Source: a virus
DNA length: 64,000 nt
Reading direction: 5' to 3' (one strand)
Virus record (IMG/VR): IMGVR_UViG_3300032294_001352
Span: 23,877-87,876 of that record
A program made the position numbers and the translations under genes. Position 1 is the first letter of the stretch; the number at the start of each line of letters is the position of its first letter. This document shows positions 9,901 through 34,465 of the stretch, in pieces. The notes beneath the pieces were generated by a model. That model was not told the origin of the DNA and searched no databases. It saw only the letters and a program-made list of their open reading frames with translations.

Positions 9901-12284
9901 GCCAACCAATCGGAATCATTGCAAGTGTCGCCAGTGCAACAAGTGTCACGCTTGTCACGACAGTGGTAGGTGGCTATCCATTGGAAGTGCCAGCAGGTAC
10001 GCAGTTCCGGCTAGTGTTGAGTGCCGCAATATCGTCCACGTCATGGTGGCTTGAATCTGCTCCGCTCAACTGGTCCGGTGGCTACTTCAAGTACCACATG
10101 GGATTCATTCAGAGTCCGGTAAGCAACAGTGTGTCTATCATCGTGGGTGGTTTTGACAATGGTCGACCAGCACCTGGCTATGGAATGAGTCAGTATTTGG
10201 CGATCATTGACATGGATGCAAAACAGAATATAAGTGGCGGCAATACCACTACTGGCACACCTACAAGCACGCGCAATATCACGGCCAATGCAACAGATGG
10301 GCTAATCACCTGCAGCACAGCGAGTGCAGTGGTGACAACCAATCAAGCGTACACGTTCTGGCCAAGTGATGTAGGGCTTGATTTGCATGATGTATCAACC
10401 ATATCAGCATCTTCCTACATTGGCAGGATCAAGTCATGGGATTCTCCAACGCAAGTCACGCTTTGGGCAAATGCGGCATTGAACGTCAGTAACAAAGTGG
10501 CGTTTAAGCGATTCAACAACAACGTCATCAATCCAGACTTTGCCTCAGTGCGCCCACTCTTCAACATGGTGCAGACACGGAATGTTAATCCATATCAGAC
10601 CATCATTCCTACTGGGCCAATTACGTGTATCTATCAAGAAAATCCTACGACGGTATTGATAGCAGGATCGTTCCGAGGCTACAACACAAGTGGTGGTGGT
10701 ACGACGGATATCCGGATTATCCGTGTACGTGGATGGATGAGGCGGCAAGGAACAACAGATACGGCTGGTGCTCCGGCTGCATCAGACCAAAACGTGGTGG
10801 ATGTGGAAGTGGTGGCCAGAGATGCAACTGCTGGATGGGGCACACCAACCATTCACTGTATGACTACCGATCCGTTTGGGAACATCTACGTAGGTGGCCA
10901 AAACATGACCACGAGTCACGTCTGGTACATTGGCCGTGCTAATGATGGTTCATATGCGCTCACCTACGCTCCACTCGGTACGTATCAATCATCATCAGTT
11001 ATTTCACTCATCACGGATACCAAGTTTCCGGTAGTGAATCTGTATGCGGCAACGACAGCACCAAACTTCTTGAAAGTGTATCCGTTCTTTAATGCACGCA
11101 GCAGTGCTGGTACGTGGTACGATCCGTCATCACTTAGCGTCAATGGTAGTTTGTACATACAAACACCAAATAATCCTATCTATCAGTTCTTACGCACGCA
11201 GGCCGGAGATATTCTTGCGTGTGGCGCGTTCAACGTCTGGGGCGCCACATTTGTCAACGGTATCGTGCGTTTTGTGCCAAAAGTTGGGAACTCAGCCACT
11301 GATAATCCGGTTGTAGTGACTGCGGCAGTACCGGTGGCTGGATCATTTGCACAGCCTGGTATTGCTGACATTGCGACATTTGGATCGTATGTAGGTACGA
11401 TGTCTGACGTATCATACAACACTATGGCGAGTGCCTACGCAGGTACTGGTGAGCGGTTGGCCTTTGGTGGAAGTTTTGTGACGTTTGCTGATGGTCGCGT
11501 GTCACTTTCCATGGGATACCTAGAGGGCAGCGGTGCCGCATCTTCCGTCAGACGTATGATTACCAGTGATTTAGGGCTAGAACCACCGGCTGCCTCTGAA
11601 AACTATCCAGTCATTCAGAAGATTGCCAGTACGTCACGGAGTCGATTGTACTATGCCAACAATCAGGTGTCTAAGACGGATAATCTCATTGGACCAACCT
11701 ATGCCGCACTTATGACACAAGCCGACGGTTCATCATTTAGCAGCGGTTCAGCCGTGTTTCGTACCGGCTATGGTCCAAACGCAAGTACCAACACGGTGGC
11801 CATTCCTCAGATGGTCAATGTGACGGTGAATGTGCGTGGCAACGCAAACGTCTATCCGATCTTTACGTTTACGCTCACGGCCAACACGTCAATCTTTGAG
11901 ATTATCCAGACGGAAACTGGTGCACACATCCGCTTTGACGACTTGTATGGATTGCGCGGCATTCCGGTGTTTACAGGAAATCCGGAAGTAGTCACGCTTG
12001 ATACGCGTCCAGGCTTCCGATCGGTGACAAGCAACCTGCGTGGTAGCCTTATGCAGTTCGTATCACCAGAGTCAAACTTTGGTGACTTTTATCTTCTTGC
12101 TCCGTTCACGTCACAAGTGAATCTAGACACGTACCGGCCAAACACGCTCATAGTCCGGTATAGCATTACCAACAGTGCATCAGTACAACAGCAGCCACTC
12201 ATTGATATCACATATACGCCACGCTTCTGGTCATTTGATGCGTCTAAGTTGTTCACAGATGAACCGAACACACCACTCATGTAA
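6954..12284 (+). CDS. Giant distal tail (Dit-like) protein with inserted carbohydrate-binding/beta-propeller-like modules
   Basis: Dit-like N half (GVGMPEITT...DGG...RTMQLAI...FVCADPY) and C half (VRGNANVYPIF...LDTRPG...YTPRFW) are separated by about 900 aa; NLIRNPSFE CBM-like start; directly after the tape measure gene. Confidence 0.75.
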   Translation: MPQYTKWEMLVPQSPNVVHNLIRNPSFEYNDQYFAGTHQYWWYYDSTGTKVSSTAAYPTQVGTWSSYGKNSLALALDGTTFRHAEYWPRVATMESLNNTLGVTLAAIDAPTGGNYTATNYPTGTHYACAFLLTPYGNSLASTSDVVPQETGTAPQIEVIQPEGYNVMDLMRGHSKPFFSSGLSYTAGTGRIQATISFPTGLATEYPSGSYGVVLFWSRPNDTHPVTGARAWRCVMVRPAWAIPTNITFVLPEVGTINNWERGSTVFYTNTSPTFNTFSIMQENGASVDAAYIGIDSSQPSLALTPTGTPWNLGTTYNHHLYLDWYVDTNYDAATSPFIACACDYAVTLIDNLTGTVYTPVNPDTGNNRLAAVPSNRSQDARTGRTKFLIAPPNNSVNANAGLDLRLRISIVSPTGTYTNNAAVLYIDGLQLIDIRYKGQDELDWDDVEFTYLDGDVAGAEWEDFAPSYTSITGTPTNGIYPASIWLGTTNAGWGTSFSMPFRNRLLNADTVDVQTYGGTTYRGYAQSAMKTFSSEVGTYYPIDADHLGASVNVTTTGVGMPEITTVTQQYGVVDGGLVQRQVASMRTMQLAIDIVGSSMANLHDRRRKLINALKFDQLAQQGDRIIRYSGSGIPVIYRVTYTAGLEFTGNVGVSFTEAASIQFVCADPYVYAERPVGTRLTLNSQLQDLRTFMAYKQGDNQPWVYTGMKEYSDYFQGNGSISNSTNSLTAQSSNGTLTCSITANTTLTISGNTVTAGAAFFFGTTDDFGRTIYAKSGGNIFVVGVISSSTSTTIATTQATPVGGDATYTAGNWWVSNRFAINSTGTLNANRIGNYLVIGAASNVTYTVLGKIIATTANKITLDTYYFGVSTSATIPNTAVAAGSWYTVGYQGSGTVGTITGTNTALVTQQAGMIVYRSSGAYVNPLGKLTAVSTTTSGSLDIDILCPGTISIPASTGGSATVTGSSTRFTSADVGRLIITKDGQPIGIIASVASATSVTLVTTVVGGYPLEVPAGTQFRLVLSAAISSTSWWLESAPLNWSGGYFKYHMGFIQSPVSNSVSIIVGGFDNGRPAPGYGMSQYLAIIDMDAKQNISGGNTTTGTPTSTRNITANATDGLITCSTASAVVTTNQAYTFWPSDVGLDLHDVSTISASSYIGRIKSWDSPTQVTLWANAALNVSNKVAFKRFNNNVINPDFASVRPLFNMVQTRNVNPYQTIIPTGPITCIYQENPTTVLIAGSFRGYNTSGGGTTDIRIIRVRGWMRRQGTTDTAGAPAASDQNVVDVEVVARDATAGWGTPTIHCMTTDPFGNIYVGGQNMTTSHVWYIGRANDGSYALTYAPLGTYQSSSVISLITDTKFPVVNLYAATTAPNFLKVYPFFNARSSAGTWYDPSSLSVNGSLYIQTPNNPIYQFLRTQAGDILACGAFNVWGATFVNGIVRFVPKVGNSATDNPVVVTAAVPVAGSFAQPGIADIATFGSYVGTMSDVSYNTMASAYAGTGERLAFGGSFVTFADGRVSLSMGYLEGSGAASSVRRMITSDLGLEPPAASENYPVIQKIASTSRSRLYYANNQVSKTDNLIGPTYAALMTQADGSSFSSGSAVFRTGYGPNASTNTVAIPQMVNVTVNVRGNANVYPIFTFTLTANTSIFEIIQTETGAHIRFDDLYGLRGIPVFTGNPEVVTLDTRPGFRSVTSNLRGSLMQFVSPESNFGDFYLLAPFTSQVNLDTYRPNTLIVRYSITNSASVQQQPLIDITYTPRFWSFDASKLFTDEPNTPLM

Positions 12285-26917: not shown

Positions 26918-28072
26918 ATGAGTTTTGCGATTGACATCCGACAGTGGAAGACGGTAGAAGCCTTTGAGGCGCATCTGAATGCACACGATCCTGCTATCTG
27001 TGATTGGGTGCAAGGCATCGTGATTCATCATACGTGGCGACCACTGCCCAGTCAGTGGCGTGGCCGATCGTCGATTGAGGGAATGAAAGCGTACTATGAG
27101 CGGCAGTCACCACCGTGGACTGCTGGACCACACTTGTTCATTGTGACTGGCAGCCCTAATCCGTCTGATGACGGTATCTGGCAGATGACTCCGCTCAACA
27201 TGGTGGGTGTACACGCTACGGTGTGTAATCCAACAACGTGGGGCATTGAAGTGGTGGGTGACTATGATGATGAACCGTGGACATTTTCTACCAAGCAGTT
27301 GGCGGTTGGTGCTGCTGCGGCATTGGCCAAGTGGCGCGGAATCATCATCTCACCTCAGACGGTAAAAGGCCATCGGGATTGTAAGAGCAGCAAGTCATGT
27401 CCAGGCAATGCCATCAACATGCAGCAGGTGCGTGACTGGATTAACGCAGAGATCAATGGCACACCAGCGCGTGAACCAATCACGGCTGACAGTCAGATCC
27501 TTGCGGCACCACGATGCAGCATGGAAACTGCGTTGGATTACATCATGAACCGGAATCCACGGCCTGCGTACACGCTGAGTGATTTCTCTATTCATATCCT
27601 GCCTGCATACTGGCAGTTAGGCAAACTGACTGGTGTTGATCCGTGTATTGCCATTGCCCAAGCAATCCATGAAACGGCCAACTTTAGCAGTTGGTGGTCG
27701 TTGCGCCCACGACGCAATCCTGCTGGGATCGGGGTGACAGGCCAATCTAGCCGAACCGCGCCACATCCTGAGGAAGTCAACAAGTGGGCATATGACAAAG
27801 ACGTGAACCTGTGGAAGTTCGGTTTATCGTTCCCATCATGGCAGGTGAGTGCATTGGCACACATGGGCCGATTATGTGCATACGCAACCAAGCCTGCTGA
27901 ACGCTCACCAGAGCAACAGAAGATTGTAGAACAAGCATTGATGATGCGATCGCTTCCATTGGCCTTACAGGGAAGCGCGCCGGTGCTCTTTGGCCTTAAT
28001 GGGAAGTGGGCTTATCCTGGCACCACGTATGCCCAACGGATTGCTGCCATAGCCACAGAGATGGCATTCTAG
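26918..28072 (+). CDS. Endolysin: N-acetylmuramoyl-L-alanine amidase (Amidase_2) plus glucosaminidase-like domain
   Basis: IVIHHT...PHLF...GVHA...GIEVVG...GHRD...KSCPG zinc-amidase motifs; C-terminal IAQAIHETANF...RNPAGIG...KWA. Confidence 0.85.
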   Translation: MSFAIDIRQWKTVEAFEAHLNAHDPAICDWVQGIVIHHTWRPLPSQWRGRSSIEGMKAYYERQSPPWTAGPHLFIVTGSPNPSDDGIWQMTPLNMVGVHATVCNPTTWGIEVVGDYDDEPWTFSTKQLAVGAAAALAKWRGIIISPQTVKGHRDCKSSKSCPGNAINMQQVRDWINAEINGTPAREPITADSQILAAPRCSMETALDYIMNRNPRPAYTLSDFSIHILPAYWQLGKLTGVDPCIAIAQAIHETANFSSWWSLRPRRNPAGIGVTGQSSRTAPHPEEVNKWAYDKDVNLWKFGLSFPSWQVSALAHMGRLCAYATKPAERSPEQQKIVEQALMMRSLPLALQGSAPVLFGLNGKWAYPGTTYAQRIAAIATEMAF

Positions 28073-28157
28073 CAGCCGGATGCTCCGTGATCAGGCTAAT
28101 AACCATCTGATTCCAACGCGGAAAATCACCAATTTTCTGTGATTCTCAAATTGGTAC

Positions 28158-28186
28158 TTGACAAACTATACATTTTGTCTTACAAT
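28158..28186 (+). promoter_or_regulatory. Sigma70-type promoter for the ncRNA cluster
   Basis: TTGACA-17 nt-TACAAT followed by GACTGACAT, as at 46591 and 60760. Confidence 0.75.
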
Positions 28187-28240
28187 GACTGACATGAGGG
28201 AATGGCGTGTGGGGAGAGAAAAAACCGTGACTGACACTCA

Positions 28241-28480
28241 CGAGTACCTCACACTTAATGGTGAGAGATGGTAGTGGTTGCCATCCAGATGTGTTGACTC
28301 GCAATCAACATGTTGACACCAGCCGTAGGTGGTGCGACCACCTCAGCAGACCTACAAGCATTATCGGACTCCGTGCGCTGGTAATGTGGAAGGCGGGCAC
28401 CTCGAAGAAAGAAAGCGTCGCACAGGAACTGGTACTCGGTATTACACTGAGTAGGTGGGCAACCTGCCAAATAGCCCACC
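28241..28480 (+). ncRNA. Putative structured non-coding RNA
   Basis: Closing stem GAGTACC (28241)/GGTACTC (28431) encloses several hairpins; followed by a GGTGGGC/GCCCACC hairpin; no convincing CDS. Confidence 0.4.
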
Positions 28481-28485
28481 GTTAT

Positions 28486-28618
28486 GGGGATGCTCTGGTA
28501 TTGACAGGGTGATTTGGCAATCAGTAGCGATAACTGCCCACGGGAAGACGCGAACGCTGCCTGCCTTTAATGGTGATAATCATTCTGGACTGCGGTTCGA
28601 CTCCGCACATCTCCACCA
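28486..28618 (+). ncRNA. Miniature tmRNA-like RNA (tRNA-like domain, 133 nt)
   Basis: Acceptor GGGGATG/CATCTCC-A-CCA with G3.U; T arm TGCGG-TTCGACT-CCGCA; helix CAGGGTGATT/AATCATTCTG; no D stem. Confidence 0.8.
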
Positions 28619-28620
28619 AT

Positions 28621-28782
28621 GCTCAGGTTTCGTTTGGGAAGTTTGACAGGGAGCGCAATCCTAGGATGTTATCGCCGATCCGGCCAATCGGATAGTGGAA
28701 TCCCGACGGGGATAGAGTGAGAAATCATCCGCTCACCAAATTGCGCCCACATACGCAGGTTCAATTCCTGCCCTGAGCACCA
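28621..28782 (+). ncRNA. Second tRNA-like RNA (162 nt) with acceptor stem, T arm and a large branched insert
   Basis: GCTCAGG/CCTGAGC-A-CCA; T arm GCAGG-TTCAATT-CCTGC; helix GCGCAAT/ATTGCGC. Confidence 0.7.
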
Positions 28783-28818
28783 CTACTACTATTACTCGCT
28801 GACCAGTAAGGAGCGCCC

Positions 28819-29133
28819 ATGAACAAGCACAAGTCACTGAATGAGATGATGGCTGAGAAAAACATCAAGATGGTCGTGAATAATTTCATGGTTGGTGATT
28901 TATCCGTGCGCGTGGTGGCCAACAACATGGGCCATGACTTTGAGCGGATGGCGAACAACCAGTGCAACATGGCCATCTACATCATCCGTGAGCGTGATTG
29001 GGATGAGGAGCAAATCATCATGCTTGGTGGTGAGTCACTGGTGATGGATATTGAAGACCATGACCAAGTGCTGGTCCATGCAAAACTGTTGCTTAGCCGT
29101 CTGATGTTGTCGCTGCTTGATGCAATACAGTAG
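28819..29133 (+). CDS. Hypothetical protein
   Basis: TAAGGAG RBS; 104 aa. Confidence 0.65.
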   Translation: MNKHKSLNEMMAEKNIKMVVNNFMVGDLSVRVVANNMGHDFERMANNQCNMAIYIIRERDWDEEQIIMLGGESLVMDIEDHDQVLVHAKLLLSRLMLSLLDAIQ

Positions 29134-29142
29134 GAGGCGCGT

Positions 29143-29331
29143 ATGAAGATTGTTTCGTGCTCATGCCCACAGTGTCGCGCGTTGATGCGTTCAAAGCATG
29201 AAAGCCGTGCATTGACCAAAGTCACGCGCGCTGCTCGCCGAAACGCAAAGCAGGCCGTTGATCGCATGACACGCACACGCAACTGGGATATGGACATCCC
29301 GACCAAAATCAGCATCCCACCTATTGGCTAA
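29143..29331 (+). CDS. Small basic protein with CxCxxC
   Basis: GGAGG RBS; 62 aa. Confidence 0.6.
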   Translation: MKIVSCSCPQCRALMRSKHESRALTKVTRAARRNAKQAVDRMTRTRNWDMDIPTKISIPPIG

Positions 29332-32563: not shown

Positions 32564-33279
32564 CAATGGTTGACGTGCAATGCTGTGATGGGAGCGGATG
32601 GTACAAAAAGGAAGTTCCGTTTGGCCATCCTGACTGGGGAAAGTTGTTTCGGTGTGAGTGCGGCAAGGCTGGCGATCCGGAAGCGCGGATGAATGCGTTG
32701 CATGATGCACTCAAATCCTATGGCGAGTGTCGGTTTGACAACTGGTTTACCGATCGACCACTAGAACCAAACACATGGGGTGGCGTGACGTACAAGACGG
32801 AAGATCAGTACAAGGCCTTACGGATTGCTACCAAGCGCGCCAAAGCCTATGCTGACGATCCTGAGGGAATGCTCTTTATCTTTGGCAGTTTCGGTGCTGG
32901 TAAGACGCACTTGGCTGCAGCCATAGGCTACGCATGTGCAGAGCGGAATCTGCGTGTGCAGTATCACAACATCACTAATCTCGTAAGCAAACTGCGGCAA
33001 GCAGCAGGTGACTTTGATGTGGAGTCAATCATGCAACCACTGTTGACTGCTGACGTGCTGATCTTGGATGACATCGGTGCTGAGGAATCAATGTCAGCCT
33101 TTATCCAGTCACAAATCTATCGCTTGATTGATGAGCGATTGCATTTGGCCACCGTTATCACGTCAAATCTGGATGTGCAGTCACTCACGGACAAGATCGG
33201 TGGGCGCACGCAATCTCGATTACAAATGGCCCAGACCATCTGGTTGCCAGTATCTGATTACCGGAAGCAGAAGAAGTAG
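32560..33279 (+). CDS. DnaC/IstB-like AAA+ helicase loader
   Basis: Walker A GSFGAGKT, Walker B LILDDIG, VITSN; N-terminal zinc motif. Confidence 0.9.
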   Translation: MTMVDVQCCDGSGWYKKEVPFGHPDWGKLFRCECGKAGDPEARMNALHDALKSYGECRFDNWFTDRPLEPNTWGGVTYKTEDQYKALRIATKRAKAYADDPEGMLFIFGSFGAGKTHLAAAIGYACAERNLRVQYHNITNLVSKLRQAAGDFDVESIMQPLLTADVLILDDIGAEESMSAFIQSQIYRLIDERLHLATVITSNLDVQSLTDKIGGRTQSRLQMAQTIWLPVSDYRKQKK

Positions 33280-33280
33280 C

Positions 33281-34465
33281 ATGGACATTCAACGCAAAGC
33301 CAAAATTGCGGCACAACAGACGTTGTTTGATGTGCAACCAAACTGGAAAGACTTCTGGTGGGATATGCCTGCCTTTGAGCAGCAGGATGCAAGAGCAACC
33401 AAGACCATCAGTGTTCACTTCCTGACCATGGATGACTTCTATGAGTTTTGTGCGGCACTTGATGTGAAGTTGACTCCGAAGTCACTCTCACTCTGGTACC
33501 CACCACAGCAACGGATGAATGGTGAGTATCTGTACACTGGACCACAGGTAGATGCACGCTATCCGGTGTGCATTCCATCCAAGGGGCGCTGGGATAACCA
33601 CAAGACTGCGGCAGCACTTGATCGGATGGGTGTGTCATACCGGTTCTTTGTAGAAGACACAGAGGCTGATGCGTACATCAACGCACTTGGGGCTGAGCGT
33701 GTGGTGGTCATGCCATTCCATGATCTTGGCCAAGGCAGCATTCCGGCCAGAAACTTTATCTGGGAATGGGCAGTCACGCATGGATATAGGCGGCATTGGG
33801 TGATGGATGACAACATCGTCAACTTCAAGCGGATCACTAACAATCGACGAGTGAGAGTTCGCACTGGCATGTTTTTCCGTGCCATTGAGGATTTCGTGGA
33901 TCGCTATGACAACATTGCGTTGGCTGGTCCGCACCATGACGGTTTCGTCAAAGATCGCTATCCTCACAAGCCACCAGTCATCTTTAATCGCCGCATCTAC
34001 TCATGCATCCTGATAGACTCCACACTTCCATACCGGTGGCGTGGAAAGTACAACGAGGATACCGATTTGAGTCTGCGTGTGCTAAAAGATGGCTACTGCA
34101 CAGCCTTGTTTGCTGCGCTCACCATGCACAAGCCCACGACTGCTGGCGGCAAGGGGAAACCGATGAAAGGGGGAAACACCGATACCGTTTATAACACGAC
34201 TGATTACCGATTGGCCTTTGCTCAGTCACTGAAAGAGCAACACCCTGACGTGGTGGAAGTGACGTGGAAGTTTAATCGCTGGCACCACCATGTGGATTAC
34301 ACACCGTTCAAGAACAACCAGCCTATACTCAGAGCGGACATCACGCCAAAGCCTGGCACCAATGAGTATGAGATGCGTTTAGTCCGTGCGGCAAGTGGTG
34401 ACATTGACGTGGATCTTGATGACGATATTGATACTGACATGATAGAAGATGAGGATGACGTATGA
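33281..34465 (+). CDS. TAGT/GREB1-like DNA glycosyltransferase (GT-A fold)
   Basis: YPVCIPSKGR, ARNFIWE, HWVMDDNI, RIYSCILI, WRGKYNEDTDLSL, KGGNT motifs; start taken at ATG 33281. Confidence 0.8.
   Translation: MDIQRKAKIAAQQTLFDVQPNWKDFWWDMPAFEQQDARATKTISVHFLTMDDFYEFCAALDVKLTPKSLSLWYPPQQRMNGEYLYTGPQVDARYPVCIPSKGRWDNHKTAAALDRMGVSYRFFVEDTEADAYINALGAERVVVMPFHDLGQGSIPARNFIWEWAVTHGYRRHWVMDDNIVNFKRITNNRRVRVRTGMFFRAIEDFVDRYDNIALAGPHHDGFVKDRYPHKPPVIFNRRIYSCILIDSTLPYRWRGKYNEDTDLSLRVLKDGYCTALFAALTMHKPTTAGGKGKPMKGGNTDTVYNTTDYRLAFAQSLKEQHPDVVEVTWKFNRWHHHVDYTPFKNNQPILRADITPKPGTNEYEMRLVRAASGDIDVDLDDDIDTDMIEDEDDV

What the first reader, a model, noticed from the sequence alone, without database searches (positions are those of the whole stretch)
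28486..28618. 133-nt miniature tmRNA: intact Ala tRNA-like domain, almost no mRNA/pseudoknot region
Seen: 5' GGGGATG pairs with CATCTCC-A-CCA (G3.U alanine determinant, encoded CCA). There is a D-loop without stem ending in GAC, helix CAGGGTGATT (28505-28514)/AATCATTCTG (28578-28587), a GAC connector and a canonical T arm. Only about 63 nt lie inside the helix. A resume-like context ATAACT-GCC (28530-28538) is present, but that frame has no stop before re-entering the helix; another frame ends ...GCG AAC GCT GCC TGC CTT TAA. Established: bacterial tmRNAs are typically about 350 nt or longer with a tag ORF and pseudoknots. Inference: an SmpB/AlaRS decoy or a tag-less ribosome-rescue RNA that alters host trans-translation.
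Basis: partly seen in the sequence, partly recalled or inferred. Interest (0 to 1): 0.82.

Follow-up and report, generated by a model that had tools for sequence, protein, structure and literature searches.

The report
Phage 133-base miniature tmRNA gene
An uncultivated freshwater phage carries a real, conserved 133-base cut-down copy of the bacterial ribosome-rescue RNA (tmRNA) that keeps the alanine-accepting end and the restart signal but has no degradation tag, so it probably diverts the host's rescue-and-destroy system.

Summary
Rfam's tmRNA model hits 28486-28618(+) at 68 bits (cut-off 47), with 41 nt in place of 282 model positions.

It is not a remnant. I found 21 distinct homologues of 132-134 nt. 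Their six-helix structure is 97.9% paired, with compensatory changes in 19 of 35 pairs, reached by 0 of 500 shuffles.

Invariant features are G3.U, the discriminator A, the encoded CCA, and a restart signal (ATAACT|GCC) identical to that of full-length tmRNAs in Chloroflexota MAGs. There are no pseudoknots.

The short frame has 5 codons plus UGA in 15 of 21, UAG after 2 codons in 1, and no stop in 5, including the window. No member encodes a degron-type tag.

Best reading: a host-charged, SmpB-dependent competitor of host tmRNA that separates ribosome rescue or occupancy from proteolytic tagging. This is inferred, not shown.

Unexpectedly, about half the family lies in cellular Chloroflexota DNA beside solo CasE, CARF and DHH genes.

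Prior art is the 83-nt "TLD only" RNA of phage DS6A, which is a different form. This scan has noted other mini-tmRNAs on other phage DNA. Verdict: a new variant of a known kind.

The parts
28158..28186 (+). Sigma-70-like promoter TTGACA-17-TACAAT, about 300 nt upstream of the RNA
   Evidence: 11 of 12 matches, the only promoter-like site in 27800-29200. Similar promoters lie 227-268 nt upstream in L003, L004 and L170. The leader between promoter and RNA is not conserved.
28486..28618 (+). Mini-tmRNA gene, 133 nt
   Evidence: RF00023 68 bits, E 2.3e-24. Twenty-one distinct homologues. Covariation.
28486..28492 (+). Acceptor stem, 5' strand GGGGATG (G3 of the G3.U pair at 28488)
   Evidence: Pairs 1-7/125-131 of alignment A2 are 100% paired. 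G3.U is present in 20 of 20, and 2 pairs show compensatory change.
28493..28505 (+). D-loop-like region without stem, ending in the invariant GAC
   Evidence: Invariant G12 G13 T14 T16 G18 A19 C20. The probable host tmRNA has the same TTGAC form.
28505..28514 (+). Helix P2 (H2), 5' strand
   Evidence: Ten pairs, 100% paired, 6 with compensatory changes.
28516..28521 (+). Helix S1, 5' strand (GGCAAT); S1 closes the message-like loop
   Evidence: Six pairs with 28556-28561, 88% paired across the family, 5 with compensatory changes. In the window 5 of the 6 pair.
28527..28529 (+). 3-bp helix h4, 5' strand (GCG)
   Evidence: Pairs with 28549-28551. 100% paired in 20 of 20. Col 43/68 is GU 12, GC 4, AU 4; col 44/67 is CG 17, UA 2, UG 1.
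28530..28538 (+). Restart signal ATAACT plus resume codon GCC (28536-28538)
   Evidence: A at -4 in 21 of 21. Position -5 is U 17, G 2, C 2, never A. U at -1 and GCC are invariant. Identical to CATAACT|GCC of the full-length tmRNAs of MAGs G001-G003, where ARAGORN places the tag start. ARAGORN uses the same codon in AFNAT members.
28549..28553 (+). h4 3' strand (CGC, 28549-28551) and the codon CGA (28551-28553) that stands where most relatives have the stop UGA
   Evidence: UGA in 15 of 21, CGA in 5 of 21 (window, L004, L081, L168, L184). At least 3 independent changes among the 4 stop-less members on the tree.
28556..28561 (+). Helix S1, 3' strand (GCTGCC)
28562..28575 (+). Small hairpin TGCC-TTTAAT-GGTG
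   Evidence: Four pairs, 98.8% paired, 2 with compensatory changes.
28578..28587 (+). Helix P2, 3' strand
28587..28607 (+). GGAC connector and T arm (TGCGG-TTCGACT-CCGCA)
   Evidence: Five pairs, 100% paired, 3 with compensatory changes. The GGTTCGAnTCC loop is conserved.
28608..28618 (+). Acceptor 3' strand CATCTCC, discriminator A, encoded CCA
   Evidence: Invariant in 20 of 20.
28621..28782 (+). Neighbouring second tRNA-like RNA (162 nt, non-alanine acceptor). Context only; it is the subject of another report.
   Evidence: Homologues lie next to the mini-tmRNA in L003, L182 (downstream) and L191 (upstream). There is no Rfam match on its strand at E<=10.

Best explanation
This is a functional, phage-borne member of a 133-nt family derived from one-piece tmRNA.

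Shown: the RNA keeps every element of the tRNA-like domain, the long helix P2 and the host-type restart signal. It has no pseudoknots and no degron-coding tag. The phage has no smpB gene.

Inferred mechanism:
1. The RNA is transcribed early from a sigma-70-type promoter and trimmed like a tRNA.
2. Host AlaRS charges it with alanine through G3.U and A73.
3. Host SmpB and EF-Tu bind it, and it enters ribosomes stalled on broken mRNAs in competition with the host's 363-366-nt tmRNA.
4. Its message part is either a 5-codon frame ending in Thr (most relatives) or has no stop at all (this copy). So nascent chains taken over by it do not receive the host's ...AFAA-type degradation tag.

The net effect would be to separate ribosome rescue or occupancy from proteolytic tagging during infection. 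In this copy the ribosome would have to run to the RNA's 3' end or be released in some other way.
For: - Rfam tmRNA 68 bits, end to end. The relatives tested (L002-L004) score 72.6-79 bits.
- There are 21 distinct homologues, down to about 76% identity.
- Structure: 97.9% of cells are paired, against 86.2% in shuffles and 37-46% in slid controls. Nineteen pairs show compensatory change, reached by 0 of 500 shuffles. RNAalifold found the same helices independently.
- G3.U, A73 and CCA are invariant.
- The restart signal is invariant at -4 (A), -1 and GCC. Position -5 is never A. This matches the mutational rules in PMC2481249 (passages read): A86 is essential, and U85 tolerates C or G but not A.
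- Full-length tmRNAs of MAGs that also carry the family have the same acceptor stem, P2 start and CATAACT|GCC.
- No smpB in the phage.
- Relatives have consensus promoters 6-10 nt upstream (L175 12 of 12, L187, L077) and strong hairpins right after the CCA in 11 loci.
- PK2-4 are dispensable and PK1 can be replaced by a hairpin (PMC3968760, passages).
- A TLD-only molecule inhibits tmRNA in E. coli (Mao 2009, as cited in PMC4131195; passages).
- Phage growth assays need ribosome release, not tagging (PMC2481249).
Against: - No evidence of expression, charging or SmpB binding. No RNA run holds the stretch, and the lay was uninformative.
- The window's copy and 4 relatives lack any in-frame stop.
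- Conversely, the stop is kept in 16 of 21, so 'tag-less' is not the family rule.
- The apparent synonymous change ACG to ACA, and the U/C at the stop position, are explained by base pairing in helix h4. The frame may therefore be structural rather than coding.
- Only 63 nt lie inside P2. By my own arithmetic, about 370-440 A when fully extended barely reaches round the 30S beak (a ring of 81x97 to 96x128 A; PMC8363625). Loading as a template is sterically uncertain.
- About half the family is cellular and lies beside cas-family genes, which hints at another role.
Confidence: 0.5

Rival explanations
1. Pure inhibitor (sponge). The RNA titrates SmpB, and possibly AlaRS or EF-Tu, or blocks stalled ribosomes after peptidyl transfer, shutting down host trans-translation without any productive rescue.
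For: - The window's copy has no stop codon.
- Stop loss arose at least 3 times among 5 stop-less members.
- The phage brings no SmpB of its own.
Against: - A sponge needs only the TLD, as in the 83-nt DS6A form.
- Here the restart signal is among the most conserved parts, and it obeys the rules for frame setting.
- The stop is kept in 16 of 21.
Confidence: 0.2
2. Defence-linked RNA. The family works with or against CRISPR-associated RNA enzymes. Cellular copies would be processed or used by solo CasE, CARF and DHH proteins, and the phage copy would be a mimic or decoy that blunts an RNA-targeting defence or its accessory nucleases.
For: - A solo CasE gene (TIGR01907, 63.6 bits) lies directly upstream of the RNA in L195 and L169.
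- L201: CARF, mini, CasE-like, CasE, then a small CRISPR array.
- L192: CARF, DHH/DHHA1, mini, orf163, CasE-like, orf179, mini.
- L168: two CARF genes, then the mini.
- The CasE paralogues are only 32-52% identical to each other.
- Precedent: tRNA and tmRNA fragments made by AcrIIIA1 associate with Cas10-Csm and RNase R (PMC11662646, passages).
Against: - All cellular copies come from one narrow Chloroflexota lineage. Only 1 of 151 sampled genomes of the phylum carries the family. The linkage could therefore be one inherited accident in a defence island.
- The phage has no CasE or CARF gene.
- None of about 5 spacers hits the phage.
- The conserved alanine identity and restart signal have no obvious use in such a role.
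Confidence: 0.12
3. A tRNA-like processing or stabilising element. Its main role would be to recruit RNase P and 3' processing enzymes to cut the early transcript, or to protect its ends.
For: - In the window the RNA lies about 300 nt downstream of the promoter. It is followed 2 nt later by a second tRNA-like RNA, and then by a gene with a Shine-Dalgarno sequence.
- L081 has a tRNA-like T arm just upstream.
Against: - Any tRNA shape would serve this purpose. It would not explain the invariant G3.U, the SmpB-type D region, the restart signal, or the internal helices with covariation.
- In many relatives the RNA is a stand-alone unit with its own promoter and terminator.
Confidence: 0.05
4. A non-functional piece: an attP-type copy of the 3' end of a tmRNA gene, or a decaying remnant of a full-length phage tmRNA.
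For: Phages often integrate into tmRNA genes and carry fragments of them (general knowledge, also stated in PMC9004378).
Against: - Both halves of the TLD are present and covary.
- Length is held at 132-134 nt in 21 distinct sequences.
- No tyrosine integrase in the phage, which has direct terminal repeats.
Confidence: 0.03

Closest known systems
One-piece bacterial tmRNA (SsrA; Rfam RF00023), for example the 363-366-nt tmRNAs of Chloroflexota MAGs G001-G003 (tag AKNISAPSFARTTAFAA)
   Same: The acceptor stem GGGGAUG/CAUCUCC with G3.U, A73 and CCA. The stemless D region ending in UUGAC. Helix P2. The GGAC connector and T arm. The restart context AUAACU|GCC.
   Different: 133 nt against 363-366 nt. 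No pseudoknots and no H5. The message is 5 codons ending in Thr, or has no stop, instead of a 17-residue tag ending in AFAA. The message loop is closed by two short helices, S1 and h4.
'TLD only' / CDS-less tmRNA of Mycobacterium phage DS6A (PMC4131195, PMC11915505; passages read)
   Same: A phage-encoded, drastically shortened tmRNA derivative with an alanine-type acceptor. It has been proposed to inhibit or compete with host tmRNA.
   Different: DS6A's element is 83 nt and scores 43.2 bits, below Rfam's cut-off. It has a 20-nt insert, no restart motif and no encoded CCA. The window's family is 133 nt and scores 68-79 bits. It has P2 plus a structured 63-nt insert with an invariant restart signal, and mostly a short frame.
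Tag-less mitochondrial tmRNAs, ~65-bp plastid forms, and 2-aa-tag tmRNAs of Fermentibacterota (PMC11915505, passage read)
   Same: Natural tmRNA derivatives with no tag frame or a minimal one, thought still to help with non-stop ribosomes.
   Different: Those are organellar or cellular, and replace the only tmRNA. Here the RNA is an extra copy in a phage, and in bacteria that also keep a normal tmRNA. I made no sequence comparison with them.
Other miniature tmRNAs noted earlier by this scan in other phages (notes e1-5711495, e1-5595181, e1-5855978: 137, 140 and 124 nt)
   Same: The same concept: TLD plus restart signal, with a tag that is not conserved.
   Different: The look-up by sequence found no look-alike of this RNA outside this genome, so they are separate families by sequence. 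My own scans also met other short families of 112, 123, 128 and 138-143 nt.

Membership tests
tmRNA (Rfam RF00023, one-piece) | Match to the family covariance model at or above the curated gathering score | tested here: met
   68 bits against 47, model positions 1-374, E 2.3e-24. Relatives score 72.6-79 bits.
tmRNA (Rfam RF00023, one-piece) | Alanine identity: G3.U70 in a 7-bp acceptor stem, discriminator A, 3' CCA | tested here: met
   Present in the window and invariant in 20 of 20. Actual charging is not testable here.
tmRNA (Rfam RF00023, one-piece) | tRNA-like domain with T arm, stemless D region (GG..U.GAC) and long helix P2/H2 in place of the anticodon arm | tested here: met
   T arm and P2 are 100% paired, with 3 and 6 compensatory pairs. 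D-region residues are invariant.
tmRNA (Rfam RF00023, one-piece) | Resume codon preceded by the frame-setting upstream sequence (A at -4) | tested here: met
   ATAACT|GCC. A at -4 in 21 of 21, and position -5 is never A. Same as the MAG tmRNAs. Rules from PMC2481249.
tmRNA (Rfam RF00023, one-piece) | Tag reading frame that ends in a stop codon | tested here: not met
   The window has no stop from GCC to the 3' end. In the family, 16 of 21 have a stop and 5 do not.
tmRNA (Rfam RF00023, one-piece) | Tag ending in a hydrophobic degron (..LAA / ..FAA type) | tested here: not met
   Frames read AHGKT, AFNAT, AFSET, AFTET, ALGKT, AYKQT and AF. The MAG tmRNA tag ends in AFAA.
tmRNA (Rfam RF00023, one-piece) | Pseudoknots PK1-PK4 and helix H5 | tested here: not met
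   41 nt stand in place of 282 model positions. A covariation scan of all column pairs found no pseudoknot. An alternative helix was tested and rejected.
tmRNA (Rfam RF00023, one-piece) | Works with SmpB | not testable with these tools
   No SmpB gene in the phage, so a host SmpB would be needed.
TLD-only / CDS-less phage tmRNA (DS6A type) | [quoted passage not shown] | tested here: not met
   The window's RNA has P2 plus a 63-nt structured insert with a conserved restart signal. DS6A has a 20-nt insert.
Two-piece (permuted) tmRNA (RF04321) | Acceptor piece upstream of the coding piece, matching the permuted model | tested here: not met
   Only 25.3 bits against a cut-off of 47, for 28583-28651.

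The most novel reading that the evidence does not exclude
The 133-nt RNA belongs to a defence conflict and is not plain translation upkeep. In the host lineage it would be a working partner or substrate of stand-alone CasE, CARF and DHH proteins, forming a CRISPR-associated module that touches ribosome rescue. The phage copy would be a mimic that disarms or exploits that module. A milder novel reading is also not excluded for the stop-bearing relatives: that they are the smallest natural one-piece tmRNAs able to complete trans-translation without any pseudoknot.
Probability: 0.12. Interest if true: 0.9.

Novelty: new variant of a known kind. Interest (0 to 1): 0.68.

Why it matters
tmRNA is usually described as 230-400 nt long, with a ring of pseudoknots (PMC3968760). 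A natural, conserved 133-nt form that keeps only the alanine-accepting domain, helix P2 and the restart signal marks out what evolution treats as the minimal core.

It also offers a compact test object for three questions:
- How is the reading frame set?
- Is the pseudoknot ring needed?
- Can rescue be separated from proteolytic tagging?

For phage biology, it suggests a cheap way to take over or blunt the host's handling of broken mRNAs during infection.

The RNA occurs in phages and, beside CRISPR-associated genes, in their probable Chloroflexota hosts. This gives a testable lead linking ribosome rescue to defence.

On the practical side, such genes are missed by ARAGORN when the stop is absent, and they are unannotated in records such as DS6A.

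Tried and rejected
- **Expression.** The look-up of sequencing runs listed no RNA holder. Laying 4 runs gave only one exact 239-nt contig (28454-28690), from a run labelled cDNA that the tool rates as probably DNA, plus other organisms' tmRNA 3' ends. This is no evidence either way.
- **Structural switch.** I tested whether codons 2-4 pair with the 3' strand of S1 as an alternative helix. It is rejected: 55% paired, no better than slid controls.
- **Pseudoknot.** A scan of all column pairs found none. One isolated covarying pair (cols 50/64) rests on a single clade.
- **Leader region 28187-28485.** It is not conserved among the four loci with distant promoters, and a related strain replaces it (table 5).
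- **Endolysin relatives.** Forty-two viral loci were fetched, and none carries the RNA.
- **15-mer motif scan.** Nearly all chance hits. Only L077/L150 and L081 were real members.
- **Motif scan for the second element.** It gave 3 chance hits in coding DNA.
- **Deposited phages.** No member was found.
- **Terminase_6N and portal families.** Not found in the three MAGs. This led me to annotate the flanks and find the cellular context.
- **Spacer match between MAG arrays and the phage.** None of about 5 spacers matched. The arrays are cut by contig ends, so this is weak.
- **attP or remnant reading.** Rejected.
- **Papers.** Those of PMC11915505 and PMC9004378 (lists of phage tmRNAs) might already include short forms like this one. 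I searched only the held library and read passages, not whole papers.

Full report
**1. The observation**

The window is bases 23877-87876 of an 87,876-bp IMG/VR virus record with 123-bp direct terminal repeats. It encodes a terminase, a portal, an endolysin, and Erf-like and DnaC-like proteins.

The element lies in a 750-nt gap between the endolysin gene (26918-28072) and a small gene that starts at 28819.

Rfam's tmRNA model (RF00023) matches 28486-28618(+) end to end at 68 bits (gathering score 47, E 2.3e-24), with 41 nt where the model has 282 positions. It is the only family over threshold in the window.

ARAGORN reports nothing in the window or in the whole phage. The single-sequence fold is no better than shuffles (z = -0.52).

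**2. It is a conserved gene family, not a remnant**

Pattern scans built from the two TLD halves with a short spacer found:
- 3 loci in viral contigs;
- 28 loci in metagenome contigs;
- 9 loci in species-representative genomes.

After extraction, 20 distinct sequences of 133-134 nt formed one family (alignment A2). A profile search over all 210 loci then held added L081. A further copy in G003 is the same sequence as L171, cut by its contig end. That gives 21 distinct sequences, with nearest-neighbour identities of 82-99%.

Five of the loci from these scans (L172, L174, L183, L193, L202) were not mini forms; ARAGORN, run on L172, calls a 361-nt tmRNA there and the others share its sequence. 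Other loci belong to other short families of 112-143 nt.

RNAalifold and my own reading agree on six helices:
- the acceptor stem;
- P2;
- a 6-bp helix, S1, that closes the message-like loop;
- a 3-bp helix, h4;
- a 4-bp hairpin;
- the T arm.

On A2, 97.9% of 700 cells pair, against 86.2% in column shuffles and 37-46% when partners are slid by 1-3 columns. Nineteen of 35 pairs carry compensatory double changes, and 0 of 500 shuffles reach any of the five measures. The related sequences inflate the shuffle test, but the slid controls, which keep relatedness, are also far lower.

In relatives the RNA is a stand-alone unit:
- Consensus or near-consensus sigma-70 promoters end 6-10 nt before G1 in L175 (12 of 12), L187 and L077.
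- Strong hairpins (-19 to -33 kcal/mol) follow the CCA in 11 loci.

In the window the nearest promoter-like site is 28158-28186 (11 of 12). The leader between it and the RNA is not conserved.

**3. What is kept and what is lost**

Kept and invariant:
- G3.U, discriminator A and CCA;
- the D-region residues, including the G of GAC;
- the GGAC connector and the T loop.

The segment GATAACT|GCC is equally well kept. A at -4 is present in 21 of 21. Position -5 is U in 17, G in 2 and C in 2, and never A. U at -1 and GCC are invariant.

This matches the E. coli mutational rules. A86 (-4) is essential for frame setting, and U85 (-5) tolerates C or G but not A (PMC2481249, passages).

Three Chloroflexota/Roseiflexaceae MAGs that carry family members also have a normal tmRNA of 363-366 nt (154-162 bits). 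ARAGORN starts its tag (AKNISAPSFARTTAFAA) at GCC, preceded by CATAACT. Those tmRNAs also share the acceptor stem GGGGATG/CATCTCC and the P2 start with the mini family. ARAGORN also calls the AFNAT subgroup of the mini family as tmRNA, using the same resume codon.

Lost: all pseudoknots and H5. A scan of all column pairs found no pseudoknot.

**4. The short frame**

From GCC the frame reads as follows:

| Outcome | Members |
|---|---|
| 5 codons, then UGA (AHGKT, AFNAT, AFSET, AFTET, ALGKT, AYKQT) | 15 of 21 |
| 2 codons, then UAG (L195, which has a 1-nt insertion) | 1 of 21 |
| No stop up to the 3' end (window, L004, L081, L168, L184; CGA in place of UGA) | 5 of 21 |

On a tree, the stop-less state sits in at least three separate places.

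The U/C at that position pairs with G/A of helix h4 (GU 12, GC 4, AU 4). The neighbouring G-to-A change, which looks like a synonymous ACG-to-ACA change, is compensated by C-to-U on the other strand (also L081). So RNA structure explains much of what might look like coding constraint.

Even so, U is preferred over C opposite G (12 against 4), which hints at some selection for the stop. Codons 2-4 vary freely, and none of the peptides resembles a degron. A proposed alternative pairing of codons 2-4 was tested and rejected.

**5. Mechanism**

Shown: the anatomy, its conservation, the identity of its functional ends with a probable host tmRNA, and the absence of smpB, tRNA genes and a tyrosine integrase in the phage.

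Established elsewhere:
- PK2-4 can be replaced, and PK1 can be replaced by a small hairpin (PMC3968760, passages).
- A TLD-only molecule inhibits tmRNA (PMC4131195, passage).
- Phage plaque assays need ribosome release but not tagging (PMC2481249).

Inferred: the RNA is charged by host AlaRS, bound by host SmpB and EF-Tu, and competes with host tmRNA at stalled ribosomes. Nascent chains then escape the host degradation tag.

Whether the message loop is actually read is open. The conserved restart signal argues that it is. The recurrent loss of the stop argues that termination there is not essential.

The insert size also leaves this uncertain. Only 63 nt lie inside P2, about 370-440 A if fully extended by my arithmetic. 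The published tmRNA ring measures 81x97 to 96x128 A (PMC8363625). Loading is therefore just conceivable, and only if the short helices melt.

In the window's copy, a ribosome that resumed at GCC would run to the RNA's 3' end and stall again.

**6. An unexpected context**

The family is not purely viral.

Ten of the 21 distinct sequences lie in phage contexts: the window, L003, L004, L077, L081, L170, L175, L182, L187 and L191.
- These are IMG/VR records, or loci sharing proteins with the window's phage.
- L182 and L191 are syntenic relatives, with the endolysin 69-75% identical and 0.6-1.4 kb upstream.

Ten lie in cellular-looking DNA, and one (L184) is undetermined:
- L195 and L169: a solo CasE gene (TIGR01907, 63.6 bits, cut-off 45.2) directly precedes the RNA. 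In L195 it sits between a threonine ammonia-lyase gene and an M48 peptidase gene.
- L196, L171 and L201: a CARF-family gene (Cas_APE2256) directly precedes the RNA.
- L201 continues with two CasE-like genes and a small CRISPR array of 28-nt repeats.
- L192 reads CARF, DHH/DHHA1, mini, orf163, CasE-like, orf179, mini.
- L168 has two CARF genes and then the RNA.

The CasE paralogues are only 32-52% identical to each other.

Against reading much into this:
- A search with my covariance model over 151 genomes sampled from that phylum found the family only in G001 (146.8 bits). All other matches were 38.7 bits or less and mostly tRNA-sized. The cellular copies therefore come from one narrow lineage. 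One non-carrier in that count, G148, is flagged unpublished.
- The phage has no CasE or CARF gene.
- None of about 5 recoverable spacers matches the phage.

L191 is a relative of the window's phage. Its mini-tmRNA is of the AFNAT type and about 90% identical to the cellular AFNAT copies. The RNA therefore moves between phage and host. Together with the shared tmRNA features, this makes Chloroflexota of this lineage the probable hosts (an inference).

A published precedent links tmRNA-derived RNA to CRISPR conflict. Fragments of tRNAs and tmRNA generated by AcrIIIA1 associate with Cas10-Csm and RNase R (PMC11662646, passages).

**7. Comparison with what is known**

The closest published case is the "TLD only" tmRNA of mycobacteriophage DS6A (PMC4131195), called CDS-less in PMC11915505.

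I fetched it. It is 83 nt and scores 43.2 bits, below Rfam's cut-off. It has a 20-nt insert, no restart motif and no encoded CCA, and it is unannotated in the record. The window's family is a distinct, larger form.

No deposited phage among 50,697 records carries the family.

Four full-text searches found no description of such a form.

Earlier notes of this scan describe mini-tmRNAs of 124-140 nt in other phages, with the same general conclusion. By sequence they are not this family.

**8. Verdict**

This is a real, conserved, probably functional RNA gene, and a new variant of a known kind. Its mechanism is inferred, and its link to CRISPR-associated genes in the probable host remains open.

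Noticed in passing
window 28621-28782 (+); L003 6725-6887; L182 4913-5071; L191 2354-2520 (-): A second conserved tRNA-like RNA of about 162 nt. It has a covarying non-alanine acceptor stem, A-CCA, a T arm, and three internal hairpins including a CCGACGG hairpin and a GAAATCATCC loop. It lies next to the mini-tmRNA in 4 loci, downstream in three and upstream in L191. It is already the subject of another report of this scan (e1-6131375).
   Followed up: partly
L195 6478-7455; L169 601-1581; L201 84-4659; L192 5295-10415; L168 590-2672; L196 5116-5956: Cellular copies of the mini-tmRNA sit beside stand-alone CasE (Cas6e) genes, CARF-family (Cas_APE2256) genes and a DHH/DHHA1 phosphoesterase gene in Chloroflexota contigs. 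L192 holds two mini copies 2.2 kb apart that are 89% identical.
   Followed up: partly
L201 1-330: A tiny CRISPR array of 28-nt repeats whose first repeat is inverted relative to the other two. The whole array is flanked by an inverted repeat of about 25-40 nt. It looks like an array inside a hairpin-ended unit.
   Followed up: no
L002 3424-3546; L167/L194/L198 (112-113 nt); L180/L190 (112 nt); L178/L185 (128 nt); L173 (138 nt); L188 (139 nt); L199 (143 nt); L200 (117 nt): Several other families of very short RNAs with tmRNA-type 5' and 3' ends turned up in the same pattern scans, in viral, metagenome and MAG contigs. Only L002 was checked against Rfam (74.6 bits).
   Followed up: partly
L166, L168, L169, L181, L195: the 45 nt after the CCA: A conserved long hairpin (GGTCGGTCTATTC...AGAGTAGRCCGRCC inside a CACACGGG/CCCGTGTG stem, about -30 kcal/mol) directly follows the cellular mini-tmRNA copies. 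It may be a terminator or a protein-binding site.
   Followed up: no
window 33128-34465 (+) and 54108-55757 (-): The phage encodes a TET-associated glycosyltransferase (TAGT, 132.8 bits) and a C5 cytosine methylase (236.6 bits). This suggests hypermodified cytosines in its DNA.
   Followed up: no
window 28186-28483: In one metagenome run, a contig of a closely related strain joins 28186 to 28483 with 183 other letters in place of the 296-nt leader. The leader upstream of the RNA is therefore replaceable. The same strain has CTT for CAC at 28539-28541 and keeps CGA.
   Followed up: no
L081, 60 nt upstream of the mini-tmRNA (11399-11460, - strand); L003 6890-6957: Further tRNA-like T arms, or a weak tRNA match (Rfam 35.1 bits in L003), lie next to the mini-tmRNA in other viral contigs. 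ARAGORN calls none of them.
   Followed up: no
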